Under the pieces are notes generated by a model, which was not told the DNA's origin, made no database searches, and saw nothing but the letters and a program-made list of their open reading frames with translations. Shown here one piece after another: positions 500 to 33,956 of a stretch of DNA of 64,000 bases. The position numbers and the translations under genes are program-made. The number at the start of each line of letters is the position of its first letter. Within the stretch, counting starts at the first letter, position 1. The DNA is from a virus. The stretch is from the IMG/VR virus record IMGVR_UViG_3300045988_155520, positions 1-64,000 of that record. The stretch is one strand, 5' to 3'.

Positions 500-620
500 A
501 CCTCACTATCGGACTTGAACCGATGACTCACGGATTATAAGTCAATTTTAAAATTTGCTGTTCTTTTCCATATAGGAAAAATTTTAGTAACGTCGCTCTA
601 ACCTACTGAGCTAAGTGAGG
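500..620 (-). tRNA. tRNA-Ile (TAT) interrupted by a 47-nt insert (544..590) in the anticodon stem
   Basis: RC exon 1 (620..591) is CCTCACT-TA-GCTC-AGTAGGTTA-GAGC-G-ACG. RC exon 2 (543..500) is GA-CTTATAA-TCCGT-GAGTC-ATCGG-TTCAAGT-CCGAT-AGTGAGG-T. Joining them restores an ACGGA/TCCGT anticodon stem and a canonical 74-nt cloverleaf. Confidence 0.6.
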
Positions 621-2839: not shown

Positions 2840-3886
2840 TTACTGTACTGGTTCAACAATCACTACTCGTGCTGAGTACTTTCCTGTCTTACCGAATCCC
2901 TTTGAATTACGTACATTTACATTTCGCTGTGTAAGATAATTAGCTACAACTGTTGCACGACGTTCTGAAAGATTCTGATTGTAAGTCTCACTACCTACAC
3001 CATCAGCATAGCCGTCTACTGTTACATATGTATCTGCAGCGATACTATTGAGAACATTCTTTGCATCATTGCTAAGTTCTGCATTATCATTATCGAAAGC
3101 GATAACGTAAACATTCTGCTTAACAACATTCTGCTTTTCTACAATCTTCTCTACAACCTTTGTAACTTCCTTTGGCTTCTTAGACATGTCGTTGCGAAGT
3201 ACATTGATTTCATTGTTATAGTCACCAATATTATACATCTTAAAATTATGTGTACCATTAGATGTCTTAAACTTGTAATCAACACCGACCTGAACACCCA
3301 TTTGTGCTGCTGAACTACCAAATTGTACAGCATCACCTGGACCATGTGTCATGTTCCAATAAACTCCAGGCTGTACAAATACACGCCATACCCTTGCATC
3401 ACCAAGGTTAAAGGCAAACTCGATTGCTGTCTTTGCAGTGAGTTCGTCTCCATCACCCATATTATTATTATATGAACGATGTGAACCATTAAGGAATACT
3501 AACCATCCAATACCAGTTACTGAACTAACTTCGAATCTGCGGGGTGTACCAGTGTAGCCAAAAAGGAGGTTACTCCAATTAATTGTACCATTCATTTCAG
3601 CATTTACAGCCTTAACAAATGTATGAGAGTCATTTACGTAATTGTCACCAAGAGCAGCTACACCTGCAAATTGGATACCAAATACTGGACTAATCTCTTT
3701 TCCAACACGTACTCCAACAGAACTGTTGAGAGGAAATACCTTATTAAGCTTCATGTTGGTGTGTGCACCACCCATTACACCTACATAAGTGTTATCCAAC
3801 AATTTTGGACTTTGAAGTGCTGTCTGTGCATTTGCACTAACAAAACTCATCATTGAGATGAGTGTCATAAAAATAAACTTCTTCAT
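2840..3886 (-). CDS. OmpA-family outer-membrane protein (signal peptide, beta-barrel-like N domain, OmpA C domain)
   Basis: Signal peptide MKKFIFMTLISMMSFVSANAQ. C-terminal VDGYADGVGSETYNQNLSERRATVVANYL is the OmpA/MotB peptidoglycan-binding signature. Confidence 0.85.
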   Translation of the reverse strand: MKKFIFMTLISMMSFVSANAQTALQSPKLLDNTYVGVMGGAHTNMKLNKVFPLNSSVGVRVGKEISPVFGIQFAGVAALGDNYVNDSHTFVKAVNAEMNGTINWSNLLFGYTGTPRRFEVSSVTGIGWLVFLNGSHRSYNNNMGDGDELTAKTAIEFAFNLGDARVWRVFVQPGVYWNMTHGPGDAVQFGSSAAQMGVQVGVDYKFKTSNGTHNFKMYNIGDYNNEINVLRNDMSKKPKEVTKVVEKIVEKQNVVKQNVYVIAFDNDNAELSNDAKNVLNSIAADTYVTVDGYADGVGSETYNQNLSERRATVVANYLTQRNVNVRNSKGFGKTGKYSARVVIVEPVQ

Positions 3887-3923
3887 TCTTATTATTTAAA
3901 AATTAAAAATTGGTTTTCAAATG

Positions 3924-3996
3924 TTGCGACAACAGGAATCGAACCTATGACTACGACTATAATTTTGTCGTCGAGATACCACTTCTCCATGTCACA
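3924..3996 (-). tRNA. Atypical tRNA with a 9-nt anticodon loop (best reading UAU, Ile-like)
   Basis: RC: TGTGACA-TG-GAGA-AGTGGTA-TCTC-G-ACGAC-AAAATTATA-GTCGT-AGTC-ATAGG-TTCGATT-CCTGT-TGTCGCA-A. All four stems pair but the loop has 9 nt instead of 7. Confidence 0.55.
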
Positions 3997-4272: not shown

Positions 4273-4382
4273 CCTTTTCTTCTTTCTATAAAAATCCACA
4301 TTGAAAAATAACCTAAAAATCAAAGTAAAACAAATTGTACTTTAAAAAACAATATGGTTATTTTTCACCCATCATCCATATG

Positions 4383-4540
4383 TGAACTACCCATGAGTTA
4401 AATACTCATAGGCTTCGGGTTTCATCGAAGAATGGCTTTCCAAAAGGTCGGCTCTTACTTCCCATCCACCCGTGTAATCGACTGTTCCTGCCGATAGTAC
4501 CTTACATTCCACAAACTAAAGACTTGTGGGCTTTACGTTA
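4383..4540 (-). mobile_element. tnpB-less miniature IS200/IS605-type element (MITE-like) carrying an omega-RNA-like module
   Basis: 4383..4495 aligns base for base (113 nt) with the tnpB 3' end and right end at 17148..17260. 4496..4538 carries a left-end-type hairpin CCACAA-actaaagac-TTGTGG, homologous to the hairpin at 32347..32369. Confidence 0.6.
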
Positions 4541-4586
4541 CTATATATAAATATAGTGAAATTTATTTTATTATCAATACTATTTG

Positions 4587-6152
4587 CTATTTTTTTTGAA
4601 AAAAAATAGCAAACTTTTCTCCACCATACTCTCCATTAGTCAACTTTATAATCTCTCTAATGGTGTATTTGTCCTTATGAGGACTTGGTAGTTTATTCTC
4701 GATGAAATATCTTGTACCAGTCAAACAAGCACCAGTGATGGTACGATATGCAGCGATAGCTTCCTCAACAGATAATGTATCATCCAATGACAAGTTCTTA
4801 TAAGCAGAAGTATCTCTATCATTTATCTTATATATAAGGTCAGATTTAGCTTCTGCAAGTGTATCACCATGCGCCCAATGACCTTCTCCATCTGTAACAA
4901 GATAAAATGTTCTATCTCCTTGAAAGAGTTTATGTACCTTGTATACATTATCATGATGTGCTTCAATAACTGAGAAAATACCATCAGCTTTAATATATTC
5001 CACACCATCTCTCTTCCAAAATACAACTTTATTCTTCTCTTCTTTTGATAAATCGTTATTGGGAATATATATTTTGTTATTCATTTTAATATGCCCATAA
5101 ACTTTTAGATTATCTGGAAATTTTGTAATTTTTGTATCATTGAGGAATATATTACCATTTACCGTCAAATTATCAGGTAATTCTTTAATTTTTGTATTAC
5201 GTAGGATAAGGTTATCTCCTACTGTCAAATTATCAGGTAACTCAGTGATATCTGTATCACTTATATCAAGACATCCACCAACAATTAAGTTATTAGGTAA
5301 CTTTTTAATATGAGTTTCACCTAAAACTAAGTTCCCTGCTACTATAAAACTATCAGGCAGCTCTGTGATATCTGTATTTTGTAAATGTACACTTTCACCA
5401 ACCTTTAAATTGTCTGGTAATTTTGTTATATTAGTATAGCTTAAAAAAATAATTTTCTCAACAGTTAAATTATTAGGCAGCTCTGTGATATCTGTATTAT
5501 TTAGATACAAAACTCCGTGTACTGTAAAATTATCAGGTAGTCTTTTTATATCTGAAAATCTTAAGTCGATGTCTTGACCAACGCTTAAGCTGTCAGGAAG
5601 TTCCGTGATAAGTGTATTCTTTAAATTAAGATAACCCGTAACTGTTAAATTATCAGGCAACTTCGTTAACTTTGTATCCTCTACGTTTAAATTCCCTCTA
5701 ACAGTTAAATTGTTAGGGAGTTCTGTAAGAGACGTATTGTTTAAGTAGATACTTTCTCCTACGATTAAACTATCTGGAAGTTCTCTAATATCTGTATGTC
5801 CTGCAAAAAGAGAACCCTTAACTGTTAAGTTGTCTGGAAGTTTTTTAATATCTGTAAAACTTACATCAAGGTCTTCACCAACACTTAAGTTGTCAGGGAG
5901 TTTTCTAATGTCGGTATATTCAATAAAAAGACAGCCCATAACGTTTAAGTTATTAGGTAACTTTTTAATAGCCGATTTGCGCAAGTTAAGATGTCTATAG
6001 ATAGTTAAATTGTCAGGTAACTCTGTGATATTTGTACCAGTTAAATTAAGACTCCCATTATAAATTAATTTCCCATCCTTAACGGTGAGTTCATACCCAG
6101 TTTCTTCCTCGAATCTTTCTATTATTTCGTTCATATTTTTATTCATAACCAT
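4587..6152 (-). CDS. leucine-rich-repeat protein with a conserved C-terminal domain of unknown function
   Basis: Many tandem roughly 23-aa LPDNLTVxGxLxLxxTxITE units. The C-terminal ~150 aa (FWKRDGVEYIKADGIFSV...GTRYFIENKLP...) are shared with 12008..13234. Confidence 0.8.
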   Translation of the reverse strand: MVMNKNMNEIIERFEEETGYELTVKDGKLIYNGSLNLTGTNITELPDNLTIYRHLNLRKSAIKKLPNNLNVMGCLFIEYTDIRKLPDNLSVGEDLDVSFTDIKKLPDNLTVKGSLFAGHTDIRELPDSLIVGESIYLNNTSLTELPNNLTVRGNLNVEDTKLTKLPDNLTVTGYLNLKNTLITELPDSLSVGQDIDLRFSDIKRLPDNFTVHGVLYLNNTDITELPNNLTVEKIIFLSYTNITKLPDNLKVGESVHLQNTDITELPDSFIVAGNLVLGETHIKKLPNNLIVGGCLDISDTDITELPDNLTVGDNLILRNTKIKELPDNLTVNGNIFLNDTKITKFPDNLKVYGHIKMNNKIYIPNNDLSKEEKNKVVFWKRDGVEYIKADGIFSVIEAHHDNVYKVHKLFQGDRTFYLVTDGEGHWAHGDTLAEAKSDLIYKINDRDTSAYKNLSLDDTLSVEEAIAAYRTITGACLTGTRYFIENKLPSPHKDKYTIREIIKLTNGEYGGEKFAIFFQKK

Positions 6153-17101: not shown

Positions 17102-17147
17102 GATTTCTCTTAAAATATAATGTATCAATATTTACTACATGCAAAGA

Positions 17148-17260
17148 TGAACTACCAATGAACTAAAAACTCATTGGCTTCGGGCTTCATAGAGGAATGG
17201 CTTTCCAGAAGGTTAGCTCTTACTTCCTCTCCACCCGTGTAATCGACAGTCCCTGCCGAT
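17148..17260 (-). ncRNA. omega-RNA (reRNA)-like scaffold overlapping the tnpB 3' end and right end
   Basis: This 113-nt block is conserved in the two tnpB-less copies (4383..4495 and 27669..27781). The terminal hairpin covaries: CCAATGAG/TTCATTGG vs CCTATGAG/CTCATGGG. The position matches known TnpB guide-RNA genes. Confidence 0.55.
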
Positions 17261-18360
17261 GTGTTATTATTTAATCCGATACGAAGAATGTTAATTGCAG
17301 CATTAACATCACGGTCATGATGAGTATGACAAATCGGACACTCCCACTCACGAACAGATAAATCTTTAATATCTTTGTTGACATGCCCACAAACATTACA
17401 AGTCTGAGAGGATGGAAAGAATCTGTCTACCTTCACAATCTTCTTGCCGTTCCATTCAGCTTTATAAGTTAGCATAGTAACAAAGCTACCCCAGCCTGCA
17501 TCAGTAACGGACTTGGCAATACGATGATTCTTAACCATACCCTTTACATTCAGGTCTTCGATACAGATGGTATCATATCTTCTAACAAGAGAGATAGAAC
17601 ACTTATGTAGATAGTCAGCACGACTATTGGCAATTTTCTCATGAAGTCGGGCAACTTTGAGTTTTTGGCTTTCAAACCCTCTGCTACCTTTCTTCTTACG
17701 AGAAAGATGACGCTGTGCTTTTGCAAGTTTATGTTCGTATCTTCTGGTATATCGGTTATTCTTAAAAGTTTCCCCATATGAAGTGATAAGCAAGTTCTTC
17801 AAGCCCATATCCACACCAACTGATTTGCCTGTCTTCTTGAGAGGAGTTTCGTATTCTTCTTCCGTGAATACAGAAACTAAATATTTACTACTCGGAGTTT
17901 TTGTGATTATTATCTTCCCTATTTTCCCTTTTATCTCACGGTGCACACGGCACTTTATACCTTCAGTGAACTTGCGTATGAAAAGTCTTCCACCAGCTAC
18001 AGATGCCGATTGTGGAACGGTGAAACTGTTTTTAGAGTGTTTGGATTTAAAATTAGGAAACTTAGCACGCTTCTTAAAGAAATTGTTATAGGCTGCTTCA
18101 AGACTGCGGATAGCGAACTGCAGGGTTTGAGCGTTTACCTCCTTCAACCATGCAGTTTCTTCCTGCTTCTTTAATATGGTAAGCGTTTTAGCCTGCGCAT
18201 AGTAATTATCACTCTTACCAGTAAGTCTATATTGTTCCTTACGTTGATTGAGAAAGTAATTGTACACAAAACGAGTACATCCGAAATGCTTTGCCAGCAA
18301 TTCGGTTTGTGCCTTGTTCGGGTACAGTCTGAACTTATATGTTCTGTTTATCTTTCTCAT
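17152..18360 (-). CDS. tnpB: TnpB (IS605 OrfB-family RNA-guided nuclease), RuvC triad intact
   Basis: MRKINRTYKFRLYPNKAQTELL N-terminus. RuvC D (GVDMGLKN), E (ICIEDLNVKGM), Zn finger CNVCGH...CPICH, and D (DRDVNAAINI). Confidence 0.9.
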   Translation of the reverse strand: MRKINRTYKFRLYPNKAQTELLAKHFGCTRFVYNYFLNQRKEQYRLTGKSDNYYAQAKTLTILKKQEETAWLKEVNAQTLQFAIRSLEAAYNNFFKKRAKFPNFKSKHSKNSFTVPQSASVAGGRLFIRKFTEGIKCRVHREIKGKIGKIIITKTPSSKYLVSVFTEEEYETPLKKTGKSVGVDMGLKNLLITSYGETFKNNRYTRRYEHKLAKAQRHLSRKKKGSRGFESQKLKVARLHEKIANSRADYLHKCSISLVRRYDTICIEDLNVKGMVKNHRIAKSVTDAGWGSFVTMLTYKAEWNGKKIVKVDRFFPSSQTCNVCGHVNKDIKDLSVREWECPICHTHHDRDVNAAINILRIGLNNNTSAGTVDYTGGEEVRANLLESHSSMKPEANEFLVHW

Positions 18361-18368
18361 ATCATTTG

Positions 18369-18376
18369 CAAAGATA
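18369..18376 (-). promoter_or_regulatory. -7 promoter box of tnpB (near-leaderless)
   Basis: RC TATCTTTG, only 8 nt from the ATG at 18360. A TTTG lies 19 nt further upstream. Confidence 0.5.
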
Positions 18377-18399
18377 CAAAATATTTTTGTTATAACAAA

Positions 18400-18426
18400 A
18401 AATCCTCCATAAAATTAGGAGGATTT
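18400..18426 (-). terminator. hairpin terminator
   Basis: AAATCCTCC-ataaaatta-GGAGGATTT directly after the stop at 18429, then TTTT on the minus strand. Confidence 0.45.
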
Positions 18427-18428
18427 CT

Positions 18429-27659: not shown

Positions 27660-27668
27660 CTGTTTGTG

Positions 27669-27903
27669 TGAACTACACTCAGTCTAAAGACTTATGTGCT
27701 TCGGGCTTCACGGAGGAATGACTTTCCTAATTGTTAGTTCTTACTTCCTCTCCACCCGTGTAATCGACAGTCCCTGCCGATGTAATTGCTATTACTTTGT
27801 AAAGATACAAAGAAATTTTTAAACTACAACATTTTTATTGCATTTTTTTAGAAAAAAATAGTACCTTACATCCCATAAGCTAAAGACTTGTGGGTTTTAC
27901 GGC
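27669..27903 (-). mobile_element. tnpB-deleted IS200/IS605-type element: omega-RNA-like module, relic tnpB promoter and left-end hairpin
   Basis: 27669..27781 aligns with 17148..17260. 27796..27830 resembles the tnpB promoter region at 18362..18395. 27860..27903 matches the left-end hairpin segment of 4496..4538. Confidence 0.6.
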
Positions 27904-28140
27904 ACATTGTATAATTATTGAAACGTTTGGAAAAGAGATTTGAATTTCATTATCTGATGGAATAAAATCTTCTCCTTTTGGATTTTGTCTATAATATAAG
28001 TCTTCATCTATTTTTCTCAGTTCTTCTTTATTAACTTTTATATTGAGTACGCCACCTTTTGTTATGCCACAATCATGAAGAAATGTTGAAATATGATTAC
28101 CTAATTCAAATATTTTGTAACTATTTAATGTAAGTTCCAT
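27880..28140 (-). CDS. hypothetical protein; last 8 codons and stop lie inside the miniature IS
   Basis: ATG ORF whose 3' end overlaps 27880..27903 of the element. Confidence 0.5.
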   Translation of the reverse strand: MELTLNSYKIFELGNHISTFLHDCGITKGGVLNIKVNKEELRKIDEDLYYRQNPKGEDFIPSDNEIQISFPNVSIIIQCAVKPTSL

Positions 28141-32327: not shown

Positions 32328-32458
32328 AAAATTTGGTTCATAGAAACCCAAAAGTCTTTAGATTTTGGGAGGAATTGAACCACTATTCCCTCTTTTAGTT
32401 ATCTTAATATAAATATAAATATTTCTTTCAAATATTTTATTTATTCAAATTTATTTTG

Positions 32459-32466
32459 TATCTTTG
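32459..32466 (+). promoter_or_regulatory. -7 promoter box of the second tnpB (near-leaderless)
   Basis: TATCTTTG, 4 nt before the ATG at 32471. Confidence 0.5.
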
Positions 32467-32470
32467 CAGT

Positions 32471-33604
32471 ATGAAATTGACTTTGCAGATTAAACTGCTT
32501 CCGACTGACAAACAAGCTATAATGCTGAAAAATACTTTCAGCGTTTTCAATGAGGCTTGTAACGCTATTTCGCAGATAGCGTGGGAACGTCATGTATTCC
32601 AGCAATTTAGCCTGCATAAGGAAGTATATTATCAAACTAAAGAAACATATCACCTGTCTTCCCAACTTGTTGTACGTGCTATCAGCAAGGTTGCCGATAC
32701 ATACAAACTTGACAGGAAAAAGAAACGACACTTTAGAGAGTTTGGTGCTATCACTTATGATAGTCGTGTACTATCATATAAGACCACCAAAACTGTATGT
32801 TCCATGTCACTTGTTGGGAGTCGTGAAAAGATAGCATATACTTGCTACCGTCCACAACTCATGCAGTATGCTAAAGGTGAAGCTGACCTCGTGCTTATCA
32901 GAGGGAAGTTCTATTTGCACCAGACAATAGACATCCCTGATGAGAAAGAAGAAATTGCAGATGAATTTATTGGTGTTGACATGGGTCTTACCGATATCGT
33001 TTCTCTATCTGATGGAACTAATATATCTTCCAAAGAAGTCAAAATCATAAGAAATAAATACAACAAAGTGAGAGCTTCTGTTCAGTCTAAAGGCACACGT
33101 AACTGTCATAAGTTACTGAAACGGTTAAAAGGGCGTGAAAGAAGATTTGCCACTATTACCAATCACCGTATAAGCAAACAAATTGTAGCTAAAGCAAAAA
33201 AAGAACACAAGGGCATTGCCATTGAGGATTTGAAGAATATCCGCTGGGGTATGAACACTAAGAAACGTAATAAAACATTTCGCAGAAGAAGCAACTCTTG
33301 GTCTTTCTATCAACTCCGTTCTTTCCTTGAATACAAATGTAAGATTACTGGCATCAAGATTGTTGCTGTTCCTCCAGCTTATACGTCACAGACTTGTAAT
33401 GAGTGTGGTCACATTGGCATTCGTAATGGTAAACACTTCCGTTGTACACACTGTGGTAATGTTTTAGATGCAGATGTTAATGCTGCTAAGAATATTGCTA
33501 CATGGGGGTATGTAAACACCCATGAAAGATGGGAATTATTGTCTTGTTATATAAATGATAATAATTTCACGTCTAAAGTCCGCAAATCTTTAGTTTGTGG
33601 ATAG
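32471..33604 (+). CDS. tnpB: TnpB (IS605 OrfB family, second subtype), RuvC triad intact
   Basis: D (GVDMGLTDI), E (IAIEDLKNI), Zn finger CNECGH...CTHCG, and D (DADVNAAKNI). The track start at 32456 is a TTG. Confidence 0.9.
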   Translation: MKLTLQIKLLPTDKQAIMLKNTFSVFNEACNAISQIAWERHVFQQFSLHKEVYYQTKETYHLSSQLVVRAISKVADTYKLDRKKKRHFREFGAITYDSRVLSYKTTKTVCSMSLVGSREKIAYTCYRPQLMQYAKGEADLVLIRGKFYLHQTIDIPDEKEEIADEFIGVDMGLTDIVSLSDGTNISSKEVKIIRNKYNKVRASVQSKGTRNCHKLLKRLKGRERRFATITNHRISKQIVAKAKKEHKGIAIEDLKNIRWGMNTKKRNKTFRRRSNSWSFYQLRSFLEYKCKITGIKIVAVPPAYTSQTCNECGHIGIRNGKHFRCTHCGNVLDADVNAAKNIATWGYVNTHERWELLSCYINDNNFTSKVRKSLVCG

Positions 33605-33605
33605 T

Positions 33606-33956
33606 TTATCGTTCAAAATAATATGTGTATAATCTTTGTATTTTACGTTCAAAGTTCTTTTTGGGAACATTATAAGTTACATGGAACATTGATTTCTTTT
33701 TCTTACTAACTTCATCATAAGGTTCGTCAATCTTTTCCTTTTTCTTTATAACTCCTCTGTTGAGTAACGTATTTTTTAAAACATTTTTATCAATTCCGTT
33801 CTCTTTTAAAACACCTGTTACTTCAGCATTGAATGGGTCTTCAAGTAATTCTTTTAGAAATTTCTTTATATCTCTAAAGAACTCAAAGAAAGTTACTTCT
33901 TTTGTGATACTTTCTTTTAATACTTGTACTTTATTTTGAGGTATATAAATTCTCAT
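33606..33956 (-). CDS. hypothetical protein
   Basis: ATG ORF whose stop abuts the IS right end. Confidence 0.55.
   Translation of the reverse strand: MRIYIPQNKVQVLKESITKEVTFFEFFRDIKKFLKELLEDPFNAEVTGVLKENGIDKNVLKNTLLNRGVIKKKEKIDEPYDEVSKKKKSMFHVTYNVPKKNFERKIQRLYTYYFER

What the first reader, a model, noticed from the sequence alone, without database searches (positions are those of the whole stretch)
4383..4540. Orphan omega-RNA module: a 158-nt miniature element made of the TnpB guide scaffold plus a left-end hairpin
- 113 nt (4383..4495) align with the tnpB 3' end and right end at 17148..17260. This includes relics of the last tnpB codons.
- The terminal hairpin changes by compensatory substitution: CCTATGAG/CTCATGGG, with G:U only on the minus strand.
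- It is fused directly to a left-end hairpin segment (4496..4538).
- If transcribed, it would give the trans-encoded TnpB a second guide: the flank CATATGGATGATGGGTGAAAAA on the minus strand.
- Whether such TnpB-less guide copies serve as extra spacers or are only transposition relics is open.
Basis: partly seen in the sequence, partly recalled or inferred. Interest (0 to 1): 0.65.

Follow-up and report, generated by a model that had tools for sequence, protein, structure and literature searches.

The report
Miniature transposon carrying a TnpB guide RNA
This is a real 165-base gene-less mini-transposon in a Prevotella-type phage genome that keeps only the two transposon ends and the complete guide-RNA scaffold of the TnpB nuclease; this kind of element has been described before, so it is a well-documented new example and not a new mechanism.

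Summary
Window 4383..4495 matches the 3' end of tnpB (17148..17260) at 98 of 113 bases and is fused to a genuine left-end hairpin.

The element is 4382..4546 on the minus strand, 165 nt. Nine distinct sibling phage contigs carry the empty site, and one metagenome contig carries the same insertion. It sits exactly 3' of TTTAT, with no target duplication.

It belongs to an IS605-family group found in large Prevotella-type phages and Prevotella genomes:
- about 1725-nt copies with Y1 tnpA plus tnpB;
- about 1.3-1.5-kb copies with tnpB only;
- many copies of 160-370 nt with no protein gene.

Every gene-less copy, across at least ten junction types, keeps at least the last 117 nt. That stretch folds into a covariation-supported structure of four stems and a pseudoknot. 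It matches the 116-nt minimal guide-RNA (omega-RNA) scaffold defined experimentally for the homologous ISDra2 TnpB.

So this is a PATE (palindrome-associated transposable element) that encodes an omega-RNA, a class already noted by Meers et al. 2023. Trans use by TnpB is plausible but untested. The element has no promoter of its own, two broken base pairs, and a guide that differs from the known empty alleles at target positions 1-2.

The window also holds a second PATE (27668..27910) and a second, divergent tnpB element.

The parts
4547..4551 (-). Transposon-adjacent motif TTTAT immediately 5' of the left end; it belongs to the flank, not the element
   Evidence: Empty sites read ...CTATATTTAT|NNATGGATG. 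TTTAT precedes 34 of 42 distinct left ends in the family.
4496..4546 (-). Left end (LE): AUAUAGUAACGUAAAGCCCACAAGUCUUUAGUUUGUGGAAUGUAAGGUACU, with the subterminal hairpin at 4509..4530 (CCACAAG / loop UCUUUAG / UUUGUGG)
   Evidence: LE profile hit at E=1e-14. The same motif lies upstream of tnpB-only copies and beyond tnpA in the ~1725-nt copies. The hairpin is predicted in the single-sequence fold.
4382..4495 (-). 114-nt omega-RNA scaffold, equal to the right end. Stem 1 is 4477..4495. The pseudoknot pairs loop 4483..4487 with tail 4384..4388. The long-range helix pairs 4468..4472 with 4416..4420. The stem with its inner hairpin is 4427..4464. The terminal (right-end) hairpin is 4389..4413. 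The final TTCAC is 4382..4386.
   Evidence: 98/113 identity to the tnpB 3' end. Structure comes from RNAalifold and pair counts on 98 distinct copies: 95.1% of cells paired and 19 of 35 pairs with changes on both sides. The architecture matches the ISDra2 116-nt scaffold.
4362..4381 (-). Predicted guide segment (flank): AUAUGGAUGAUGGGUGAAAA. The first 16 nt are 4366..4381.
   Evidence: Inferred from its position immediately 3' of the right end. The matching empty site in sibling genomes is TTTAT+[GA/TA/AG]ATGGATGATGGATG.
17152..18360 (-). tnpB (402 aa), the candidate trans-acting nuclease. Its own scaffold and right end are 17147..17260. It has no left end.
   Evidence: Pfam HTH_OrfB_IS605, OrfB_IS605 and TNB domains. 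E=6e-86 to ISDra2 TnpB structures, with the GVDMG, IEDLN and DRDVNAA motifs present. No LE profile hit upstream, where the upstream gene's terminator abuts the promoter.
27668..27910 (-). Second gene-less element of the same family (243 nt): left-end hairpin, remnant of the tnpB promoter/5' region, and the full scaffold
   Evidence: tblastn, nhmmer and LE profile hits; sequence read. The same insertion is present in L080.

Best explanation
[quoted passage not shown] It consists of the left-end hairpin joined directly to the last 114 nt of the element.

**Shown**
- It is an insertion relative to sibling phage genomes, placed 3' of TTTAT without target duplication.
- Copies with the same left-end/scaffold junction sit at about seven different sites in other phage contigs, so the miniature form itself moves.
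- The retained 114 nt fold into a structure conserved by covariation.

**Inferred**
- It is moved as single-stranded DNA by a Y1 TnpA supplied in trans. The window has none. Related ~1725-nt copies in phage contigs and Prevotella genomes encode one.
- When transcribed, probably by read-through from the upstream LRR gene, the 114 nt form a complete omega-RNA scaffold whose 3' extension (AUAUGGAUGAUGGGUG...) is the guide.
- A TnpB made elsewhere in the genome, most likely 17152..18360, loads this RNA and cuts TTTAT-flanked empty sites in sister or co-infecting genomes. Repair from the occupied copy then restores or spreads the element, following the retention/homing model of Meers et al. 2023.
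For: **Mobility**
- Empty sites occur in nine distinct sibling contigs and an orthologous occupied site occurs in L184.
- TTTAT precedes 34 of 42 distinct left ends, with unrelated flanks upstream.
- Elements fall into size classes of about 161-169, 243, 260, 370, 1290-1500 and about 1725 nt.
- A divergent Y1 tnpA lies next to tnpB in 13 viral and several Prevotella loci.

**Scaffold retention**
- All 40 or more TnpB-less copies, in at least ten junction types, start at profile position 215 or earlier of 331. They therefore keep at least 117 nt.
- This includes copies found with a pattern 45-73 nt from the right end, which could have detected shorter ones.
- Several left-end-less copies keep only the promoter and the scaffold.

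**Structure**
- 95.1% of cells are paired, against 28-46% when partners are slid, and 19 of 35 pairs change on both sides. No shuffle out of 500 reaches these values.
- The pseudoknot pair is G-C 32, G.U 34, A-U 31 and mismatch 1, and L125 has a double change at a neighbouring pair.
- G.U is the dominant pair at four positions, so the fold is specific to the tnpB-sense strand.
- The window mini and its orthologue in L184 differ by a compensatory C-G to U-A change.

**Comparison with ISDra2**
- The functional omega-RNA is a 116-nt scaffold with four stems and a pseudoknot between -5..-3 and -105..-103.
- The 5' region is not needed, and the TnpB C-terminal tail that overlaps the scaffold is disordered (PMC10097598).
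- Here the homology to ISDra2 TnpB stops at residue 377.

**Nuclease**
- The window TnpB keeps the RuvC motifs.
Against: - No transcript data are available.
- This junction type carries no recognisable promoter. There is no TAnnTTTG box inside it, and the one sigma-70-like hit in the flank is no better than chance (3 found against 2.3 expected).
- The window copy has two broken pairs at positions that are paired in nearly all the other copies: G40>U is the only unpaired case at its pair and U21>A is one of six.
- TnpB-less copies as a group have about twice as many broken core pairs as full-length copies (0.83 against 0.38, p=0.002, not corrected for phylogeny).
- The guide differs from every known empty allele at target positions 1-2 and 14.
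- No tnpA is present in the 64-kb window.
- The scaffold is only 87% identical to that of the window's TnpB, so compatibility is assumed.
- Covariation among minis may be inherited from different full-length parents and need not have been selected within the minis.
Confidence: 0.55

Rival explanations
1. It is an inert transposition relic. The element is, or was, a mobile PATE, but its scaffold part is not expressed or not used. The 114 nt are kept because they are the cis-acting right end, or because of how deletions arise (microhomology between ...CACTAT in the left end and ...ATAT/ACAT just before stem 1). The copy is slowly decaying.
For: - No internal promoter was found.
- The window copy has two pair-breaking substitutions, and minis in general have more broken pairs.
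- Substitution density relative to the nearest full-length copy is the same in paired and unpaired columns (238 differences over 70 columns against 180 over 54).
- A TAT/CAC microhomology is visible at the junction.
Against: - At least ten different junction types all spare stem 1, which lies about 100 nt from the right end. From memory, published IS608 work indicates TnpA needs only the subterminal hairpin region.
- Copies that have lost the left end, and so cannot transpose, still keep the promoter and the scaffold across several contigs.
- 73% of the differences at paired positions keep pairing.
- A compensatory change separates the two orthologous copies.
Confidence: 0.33
2. It arose by in-situ internal deletion of a full-length tnpB element that once sat at this site, and not by insertion of an element that was already miniature.
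For: Other TnpB-less copies (the L002 and L007 types) look like in-place deletions inherited at a single site.
Against: - The same direct left-end/scaffold junction (..GTAAGnnACTAT|CGGCAGG) is found at about seven unrelated sites, each preceded by TTTAT or a near variant.
- No contig in hand has a full-length copy at this site. Only empty alleles and one orthologous mini were found.
Confidence: 0.05
3. The phage has recruited the element as an extra spacer. TnpB-less scaffold modules would then serve the phage itself: one TnpB gene with several guides cuts rival phages that lack the insertions, for superinfection competition or gene drive at several loci.
For: - There are multiple modules per genome: two PATEs and two tnpB genes in this window, and 4-6 copies in the 210-222-kb sibling contigs.
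- Left-end-less copies with promoter and scaffold are conserved.
- The two bases next to the TAM are hypervariable in the population (five alleles) while the next ~40 nt are nearly fixed. That is where escape mutations from TnpB would fall.
Against: - There is no functional data.
- Guides are fixed by the insertion site, so they only ever target the element's own empty site.
- The pattern is fully explained by selfish retention or homing without any benefit to the phage.
- The hypervariable dinucleotide rests on five alleles at one locus.
Confidence: 0.12

Closest known systems
PATE-like elements of Geobacillus stearothermophilus IS605-family transposons (Meers et al. 2023; preprint PMC10055086)
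   Same: - Gene-less elements with left and right ends like those of tnpB-carrying IS elements.
[quoted passage not shown]
- Mobilised by a Y1 TnpA in trans.
   Different: - Here the host is a large Prevotella-type phage genome, not a bacterial chromosome.
- The TAM is TTTAT.
- The element is reduced to the left-end hairpin plus exactly the minimal scaffold.
- No experiment has been done on it.
ISDra2 TnpB-omega-RNA of Deinococcus radiodurans (Karvelis et al. 2021; Nakagawa et al. 2023, PMC10097598)
   Same: - The protein is a clear homologue (E=6e-86).
- The scaffold length is similar (114 nt here, 116 nt there).
- Both have a stem 1 whose loop forms a pseudoknot with the 3-5 nt just before the guide, a long-range helix enclosing a stem with an inner hairpin, and a terminal hairpin.
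- In both, the scaffold overlaps a dispensable C-terminal tail of the protein.
   Different: - The TAM is TTGAT in ISDra2 and TTTAT here.
- The primary sequences were not compared directly.
- The ISDra2 RNA is encoded with its tnpB, whereas this copy has no tnpB.
PATEs of Haloquadratum walsbyi and other IS200/IS605 MITE-like derivatives (Dyall-Smith et al. 2011, PMC3119063)
   Same: Short non-coding elements bounded by IS200/IS605-type palindromic ends and present at several sites.
   Different: They were described before omega-RNAs were known, in archaeal chromosomes. No link to a guide scaffold was examined there.
Stand-alone omega-RNA loci noted for IscB/IsrB/TnpB systems (Altae-Tran et al. 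2021; recalled from memory, not read here)
   Same: Guide-RNA genes without an adjacent nuclease gene, proposed to work in trans.
   Different: Those are mostly IscB-type RNAs.

Membership tests
IS200/IS605-family PATE (gene-less non-autonomous derivative) | No protein-coding gene between the ends | tested here: met
   The element is 165 nt. It holds only a 35-codon relic of the tnpB 3' end, with no start codon context.
IS200/IS605-family PATE (gene-less non-autonomous derivative) | Left and right ends with subterminal imperfect palindromes like those of a protein-coding IS of the family | tested here: met
   The LE profile hits the mini, tnpB-only copies and tnpA+tnpB copies. The LE and RE hairpins share the loop TCTTTAG.
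IS200/IS605-family PATE (gene-less non-autonomous derivative) | Insertion 3' of a short conserved target motif, without target-site duplication | tested here: met
   Occupied and empty alleles were compared. TTTAT precedes 34 of 42 left ends.
IS200/IS605-family PATE (gene-less non-autonomous derivative) | A Y1 (HUH) TnpA exists in the same element family to mobilise it | tested here: met
These elements are ~1725 nt and have the same ends. None is present in the window.
IS200/IS605-family PATE (gene-less non-autonomous derivative) | Actual excision and integration by TnpA | not testable with these tools
   There is only the indirect evidence of about seven insertion sites for the same junction type.
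TnpB omega-RNA (OMEGA guide RNA) | Derived from the 3' end of tnpB and the right end, on the tnpB-sense strand | tested here: met
   98/113 identity to tnpB 17148..17260. G.U-dominant pairs make the fold strand-specific.
TnpB omega-RNA (OMEGA guide RNA) | Conserved multi-stem scaffold with a pseudoknot next to the guide | tested here: met
   Covariation on 98 distinct copies. The layout agrees with the ISDra2 cryo-EM description. The window copy has 2 of 35 pairs broken.
TnpB omega-RNA (OMEGA guide RNA) | Guide equals the flank 3' of the right end and matches a TAM-flanked target (the empty site) | tested here: inconclusive
   The flank is in place and empty sites carry TTTAT. All known empty alleles differ from the guide at positions 1-2 and 14, and no perfect target was found in the viral or metagenome collections.
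TnpB omega-RNA (OMEGA guide RNA) | Transcribed, processed and bound by TnpB, and directs DNA cleavage | not testable with these tools
   No expression or biochemical data are available, and no promoter was found inside the element.
Any Rfam RNA family | Match to a curated covariance model | tested here: not met
   At the gathering score only tRNAs are found in the window. Nothing has E<0.1 in 4300..4620.

The most novel reading that the evidence does not exclude
Large Prevotella-type phages keep several TnpB-less promoter/scaffold or end/scaffold modules as a dispersed guide set for one or two resident TnpB genes. In mixed infections the nuclease would then cut sibling or rival phage genomes at every site that lacks a module, converting or excluding them. 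The hypervariable dinucleotide at target positions 1-2 of this site would be the trace of escape from that cutting. This would be a natural, array-less multi-guide stage between transposon-bound TnpB and CRISPR-Cas12.
Probability: 0.12. Interest if true: 0.7.

Novelty: new member of a known kind. Interest (0 to 1): 0.35.

Why it matters
- **Natural deletion series.** Independent deletions in phage genomes stop at or before the base of stem 1. They leave a 114-117-nt unit that coincides with the experimentally defined minimal omega-RNA of ISDra2. This supports the view that IS605 derivatives persist only if they keep their guide RNA. It also gives a ready-made minimal scaffold and TAM (TTTAT) for a new ISDra2-like TnpB.
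- **Phage setting.** Large gut and rumen phages of Prevotella carry whole populations of these elements: autonomous, tnpB-only, left-end-less and gene-less. That makes them a natural system in which TnpB-driven homing between co-infecting genomes could be tested.
- **Limit.** It does not reveal a new mechanism.

Tried and rejected
- **Rfam.** The gathering-score and E-value scans returned only tRNAs and noise.
- **Direct repeat at the tnpB ends.** ATCTTTGCA occurs both just upstream of the tnpB ATG and in the right flank, which I first considered a target duplication. I rejected this. It fits the Bacteroidetes -7 promoter box TAnnTTTG (from memory), is present upstream of nearly all tnpB copies, and the family inserts without duplication.
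- **Promoter inside the mini.** I found no TAnnTTTG box by eye. The sigma-70-type scan gave 3 hits against 2.3 expected.
- **Perfect target.** An exact search for an empty site or identical flank in metagenome contigs found nothing. The NN-tolerant search of viral contigs found only GA and TA alleles.
- **Left-end-anchored scan.** The scan meant to find minis lacking the scaffold returned only 6 stretches, all already explained. It is too small to be a strong negative.
- **Window tnpB as direct parent.** Rejected, because the mini is closer to other lineages.
- **Second TnpB as partner.** The TnpB at 32456..33604 is only 29% identical and has a different 3' region, so it is unlikely to be the partner.

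Full report
**Setting.** The window is AT-rich. It carries ten tRNA hits and phage genes for tail fibre, baseplate wedge, an SbcC-like protein and an exonuclease. Its relatives are IMG/VR viral contigs of 70-350 kb. ORF 17152..18360 (minus) is a TnpB with HTH_OrfB_IS605, OrfB_IS605 and TNB domains. It is 81.5% identical to a protein of Parabacteroides phage PF672P2 and 82-87% identical to copies in Prevotella and Prevotellaceae genomes. It is a clear homologue of ISDra2 TnpB (E=6e-86), with the RuvC motifs GVDMG, IEDLN and DRDVNAA present.

**Checking the observation.**
- 4383..4495 aligns without gaps to 17148..17260 at 98/113 bases. The relic of the last 35 codons is still open.
- The terminal hairpin differs from that of tnpB by changes on both arms that keep pairing only if G.U is allowed on the minus strand.
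- The segment beyond 4495 has no counterpart next to the window's tnpB. It does match a left-end motif, TTTAT|ATAATGTGCCGTAAAACCCACAAGTCTTTAGCTTGTGGGATGTAAGGCACTAT.
- That motif lies upstream of many full-length tnpB copies and, in ~1725-nt copies, beyond a divergent tnpA.

**Boundaries and mobility.**
- I used the neighbouring LRR gene (4587..6152) to fetch sibling contigs, then ran pattern scans of the viral and metagenome collections.
- Nine distinct contigs have an empty site...CTATATTTAT|NNATGGATGATGGATGAAAAATAACC. At that site the window has ...CTATATTTAT|[165 nt]|ATATGGATGATGGGTGAAAAATAACC.
- One metagenome contig (L184) has an orthologous mini at the same site.
- The element is therefore 4382..4546, inserted 3' of TTTAT with no duplication.
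- Across the family, TTTAT precedes 34 of 42 distinct left ends, whose upstream flanks are unrelated. Right ends finish with T(T/C)CA(C/T).
- The same direct left-end/scaffold junction occurs at about seven unrelated sites. The miniature form itself has therefore transposed.

**The family.**
- A 26-nt scaffold pattern found 107 viral stretches, and a second pattern nearer the right end found 51.
- tblastn and nhmmer sort the copies into 55-62 with a full tnpB and more than 40 without one.
- Pairing left-end and right-end hits gives size classes of about 161-169, 243, 260 and 370 nt (gene-less), 1290-1500 nt (tnpB only) and about 1725 nt.
- This is an IS605-type family with autonomous, tnpB-only and gene-less members. 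Gene-less members of this kind are called PATEs in the literature.
- The window has no tnpA. Its tnpB has lost its left end: the terminator of the upstream gene abuts the tnpB promoter region.

**What the gene-less copies keep.**
- The TnpB-less copies fall into at least ten junction types. Examples are:
  - left end fused directly to the scaffold;
  - left end plus promoter remnant;
  - left end plus promoter plus 26 codons;
  - promoter plus 3-4 codons with no left end;
  - a degenerate left end.
- In all of them, homology to the full-length 3' end starts at profile position 172-215 of 331, so at least 117 nt are kept.
- The second search pattern lies 45-73 nt from the end and could have found shorter derivatives, but found none.
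- A left-end-anchored scan found no shorter ones either, but it returned only six stretches.

**Structure of the kept part.**
- RNAalifold on 36 copies predicts four elements:
  - stem 1, AUCGGC/GUCGAU;
  - a long-range helix, CGGGU/(A/G)CCCG;
  - an enclosed stem, GAGGAA/UUCCUC, with an inner hairpin;
  - the terminal hairpin.
- I added a pseudoknot between the stem-1 loop (GGAC or GAAC) and the tail just before the guide (GUCC or GUUC).
- On 98 distinct copies, 95.1% of cells pair, against 28-46% when partners are slid. 19 of 35 pairs show changes on both sides, and no shuffle out of 500 reaches any of the measures.
- The variable pseudoknot pair is G-C 32, G.U 34, A-U 31 and mismatch 1. One copy (L125) carries a double change at the next pair.
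- G.U is the commonest pair at four positions, so the fold exists only on the tnpB-sense strand.
- The single-sequence fold of the window mini reproduces the same stems, with a modest z-score of -1.5.

**Comparison with the solved homologue.** For ISDra2, Nakagawa et al. report the following (PMC10097598):
- The RNA bound by TnpB is a 116-nt scaffold plus a 16-nt guide.
- The scaffold has four stems and a pseudoknot between -5..-3 and -105..-103.
- Nucleotides -231..-117 are not needed.
- The protein's C-terminal tail, which overlaps the scaffold, is disordered and dispensable.

Here the scaffold is 114 nt. The pseudoknot joins -6..-3 with -106..-103, and homology to ISDra2 TnpB ends at residue 377 of 402. 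The unit spared by every deletion is thus, almost to the nucleotide, the minimal functional guide-RNA scaffold. This resemblance rests on the paper's description and my structure, not on a direct alignment of the two RNAs.

**State of this particular copy.**
- Relative to the family it has two broken pairs. G40>U is the only unpaired case at its pair and U21>A is one of six, among 98 copies.
- Its orthologue in L184 lacks the first of these and differs by a compensatory C-G to U-A change in the inner hairpin.
- As a group, the TnpB-less copies have more broken core pairs than full-length ones (0.83 against 0.38, p=0.002, no phylogenetic correction).
- 73% of their differences at paired positions, relative to the nearest full-length copy, still keep pairing. 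Because minis derive from several full-length lineages, part of this may be inherited.
- This junction type has no promoter of its own, so transcription would need read-through from the LRR gene. Other junction types, including the window's second copy, retain the tnpB promoter region.

**Most likely mechanism.**
- Shown: the element is a mobile, gene-less IS605 derivative that has kept a structurally intact guide-RNA scaffold, with the local flank in the guide position.
- Inferred:
  - It is moved by a TnpA supplied in trans.
  - Its RNA is loaded by a TnpB made elsewhere in the genome.
  - That complex cuts TTTAT-flanked empty sites, so that recombination restores or spreads the element.
- Meers et al. 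demonstrated this retention/homing model for G. stearothermophilus elements. They also remarked that PATEs often encode omega-RNAs that must be used in trans.
- The main rival is that the RNA part is unused and decaying.

**Novelty.** The class is known. New here are:
- the phage setting;
- the TTTAT TAM for this ISDra2-like clade;
- the natural deletion series that ends at the minimal scaffold;
- the hypervariable dinucleotide at target positions 1-2 (AT and AA in occupied alleles; GA, TA and AG in empty ones), while the next ~40 nt are almost invariant. I could not explain this last point.

I rate the finding as a new member of a known kind, of moderate interest.

Noticed in passing
window 27668..27910 (minus strand): A second gene-less element of the same family (243 nt). 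It has a left-end hairpin, about 80 nt of tnpB promoter/5' remnant (..TTTGTATCTTTACAAAG..) and the full scaffold, and is preceded by ATTAT. The identical insertion is present in L080.
   Followed up: partly
window 32330..33609 (plus strand): A second, divergent tnpB element. ORF 32456..33604 has TNB and OrfB_IS605 domains and is 29% identical to the first TnpB. It has its own left-end hairpin (CCCAAAAG TCTTTAG ATTTTGGG, ~32346..32370) and right-end hairpin (CCGCAAA TCTTTAG TTTGTGG, ~33580..33601). Both share the loop TCTTTAG with the first family, which suggests the same or a similar TnpA.
   Followed up: partly
window 18361..18428: The window's main tnpB (17152..18360) has no left end. Only about 43 nt of promoter region remain, and the terminator hairpin of the upstream gene abuts them. 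This copy therefore cannot be mobilised by TnpA, although its scaffold and right end are intact. Many phage-borne copies (L068, L070, L108, L014) look the same.
   Followed up: partly
window 4380..4381 and the same site in L112, L114-L117, L178-L190: The two bases right after the TAM/right-end junction have five alleles: GA, TA and AG at empty sites, AT and AA at occupied sites. The following ~40 nt are almost invariant. These are TAM-proximal positions 1-2 of the predicted TnpB target.
   Followed up: partly
L184 (metagenome contig QWCL01001009.1) about 3790..3958: An orthologous mini at the same insertion site, about 93% identical to the window copy. It carries a compensatory C-G to U-A change in the inner hairpin and an intact closing pair where the window copy has G>U.
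   Followed up: partly
window 500..620 (minus strand): An Rfam tRNA hit (43.6 bits) spans 121 nt for a 71-position model and was not called by ARAGORN. It looks like a tRNA interrupted by a ~50-nt insertion in the anticodon-loop region, inside a cluster of phage tRNAs.
   Followed up: no
window 3923..3996 (minus strand): ARAGORN calls a tRNA-Asn with the unusual anticodon ATT (45.5 bits in Rfam). It lies just downstream of the mini, behind a TAnnTTTG-type promoter box.
   Followed up: no
viral contigs IMGVR_UViG_3300045988_152231 (222 kb) and IMGVR_UViG_3300008575_000009 (210 kb): loci L014, L044, L048, L070, L125, L135 and L003, L021, L030, L086: Single large sibling phage contigs carry 4-6 copies of this family each, both full tnpB and gene-less copies, while having the empty allele at the site studied here.
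   Followed up: partly
L002, L025, L040, L077, L087, L097 (one orthologous site): Left-end-less remnants made only of the tnpB promoter, ATG plus 3-4 codons and the full scaffold. They are conserved at one site in six contigs, yet their scaffold sequences differ markedly, which may reflect gene conversion with other copies.
   Followed up: no
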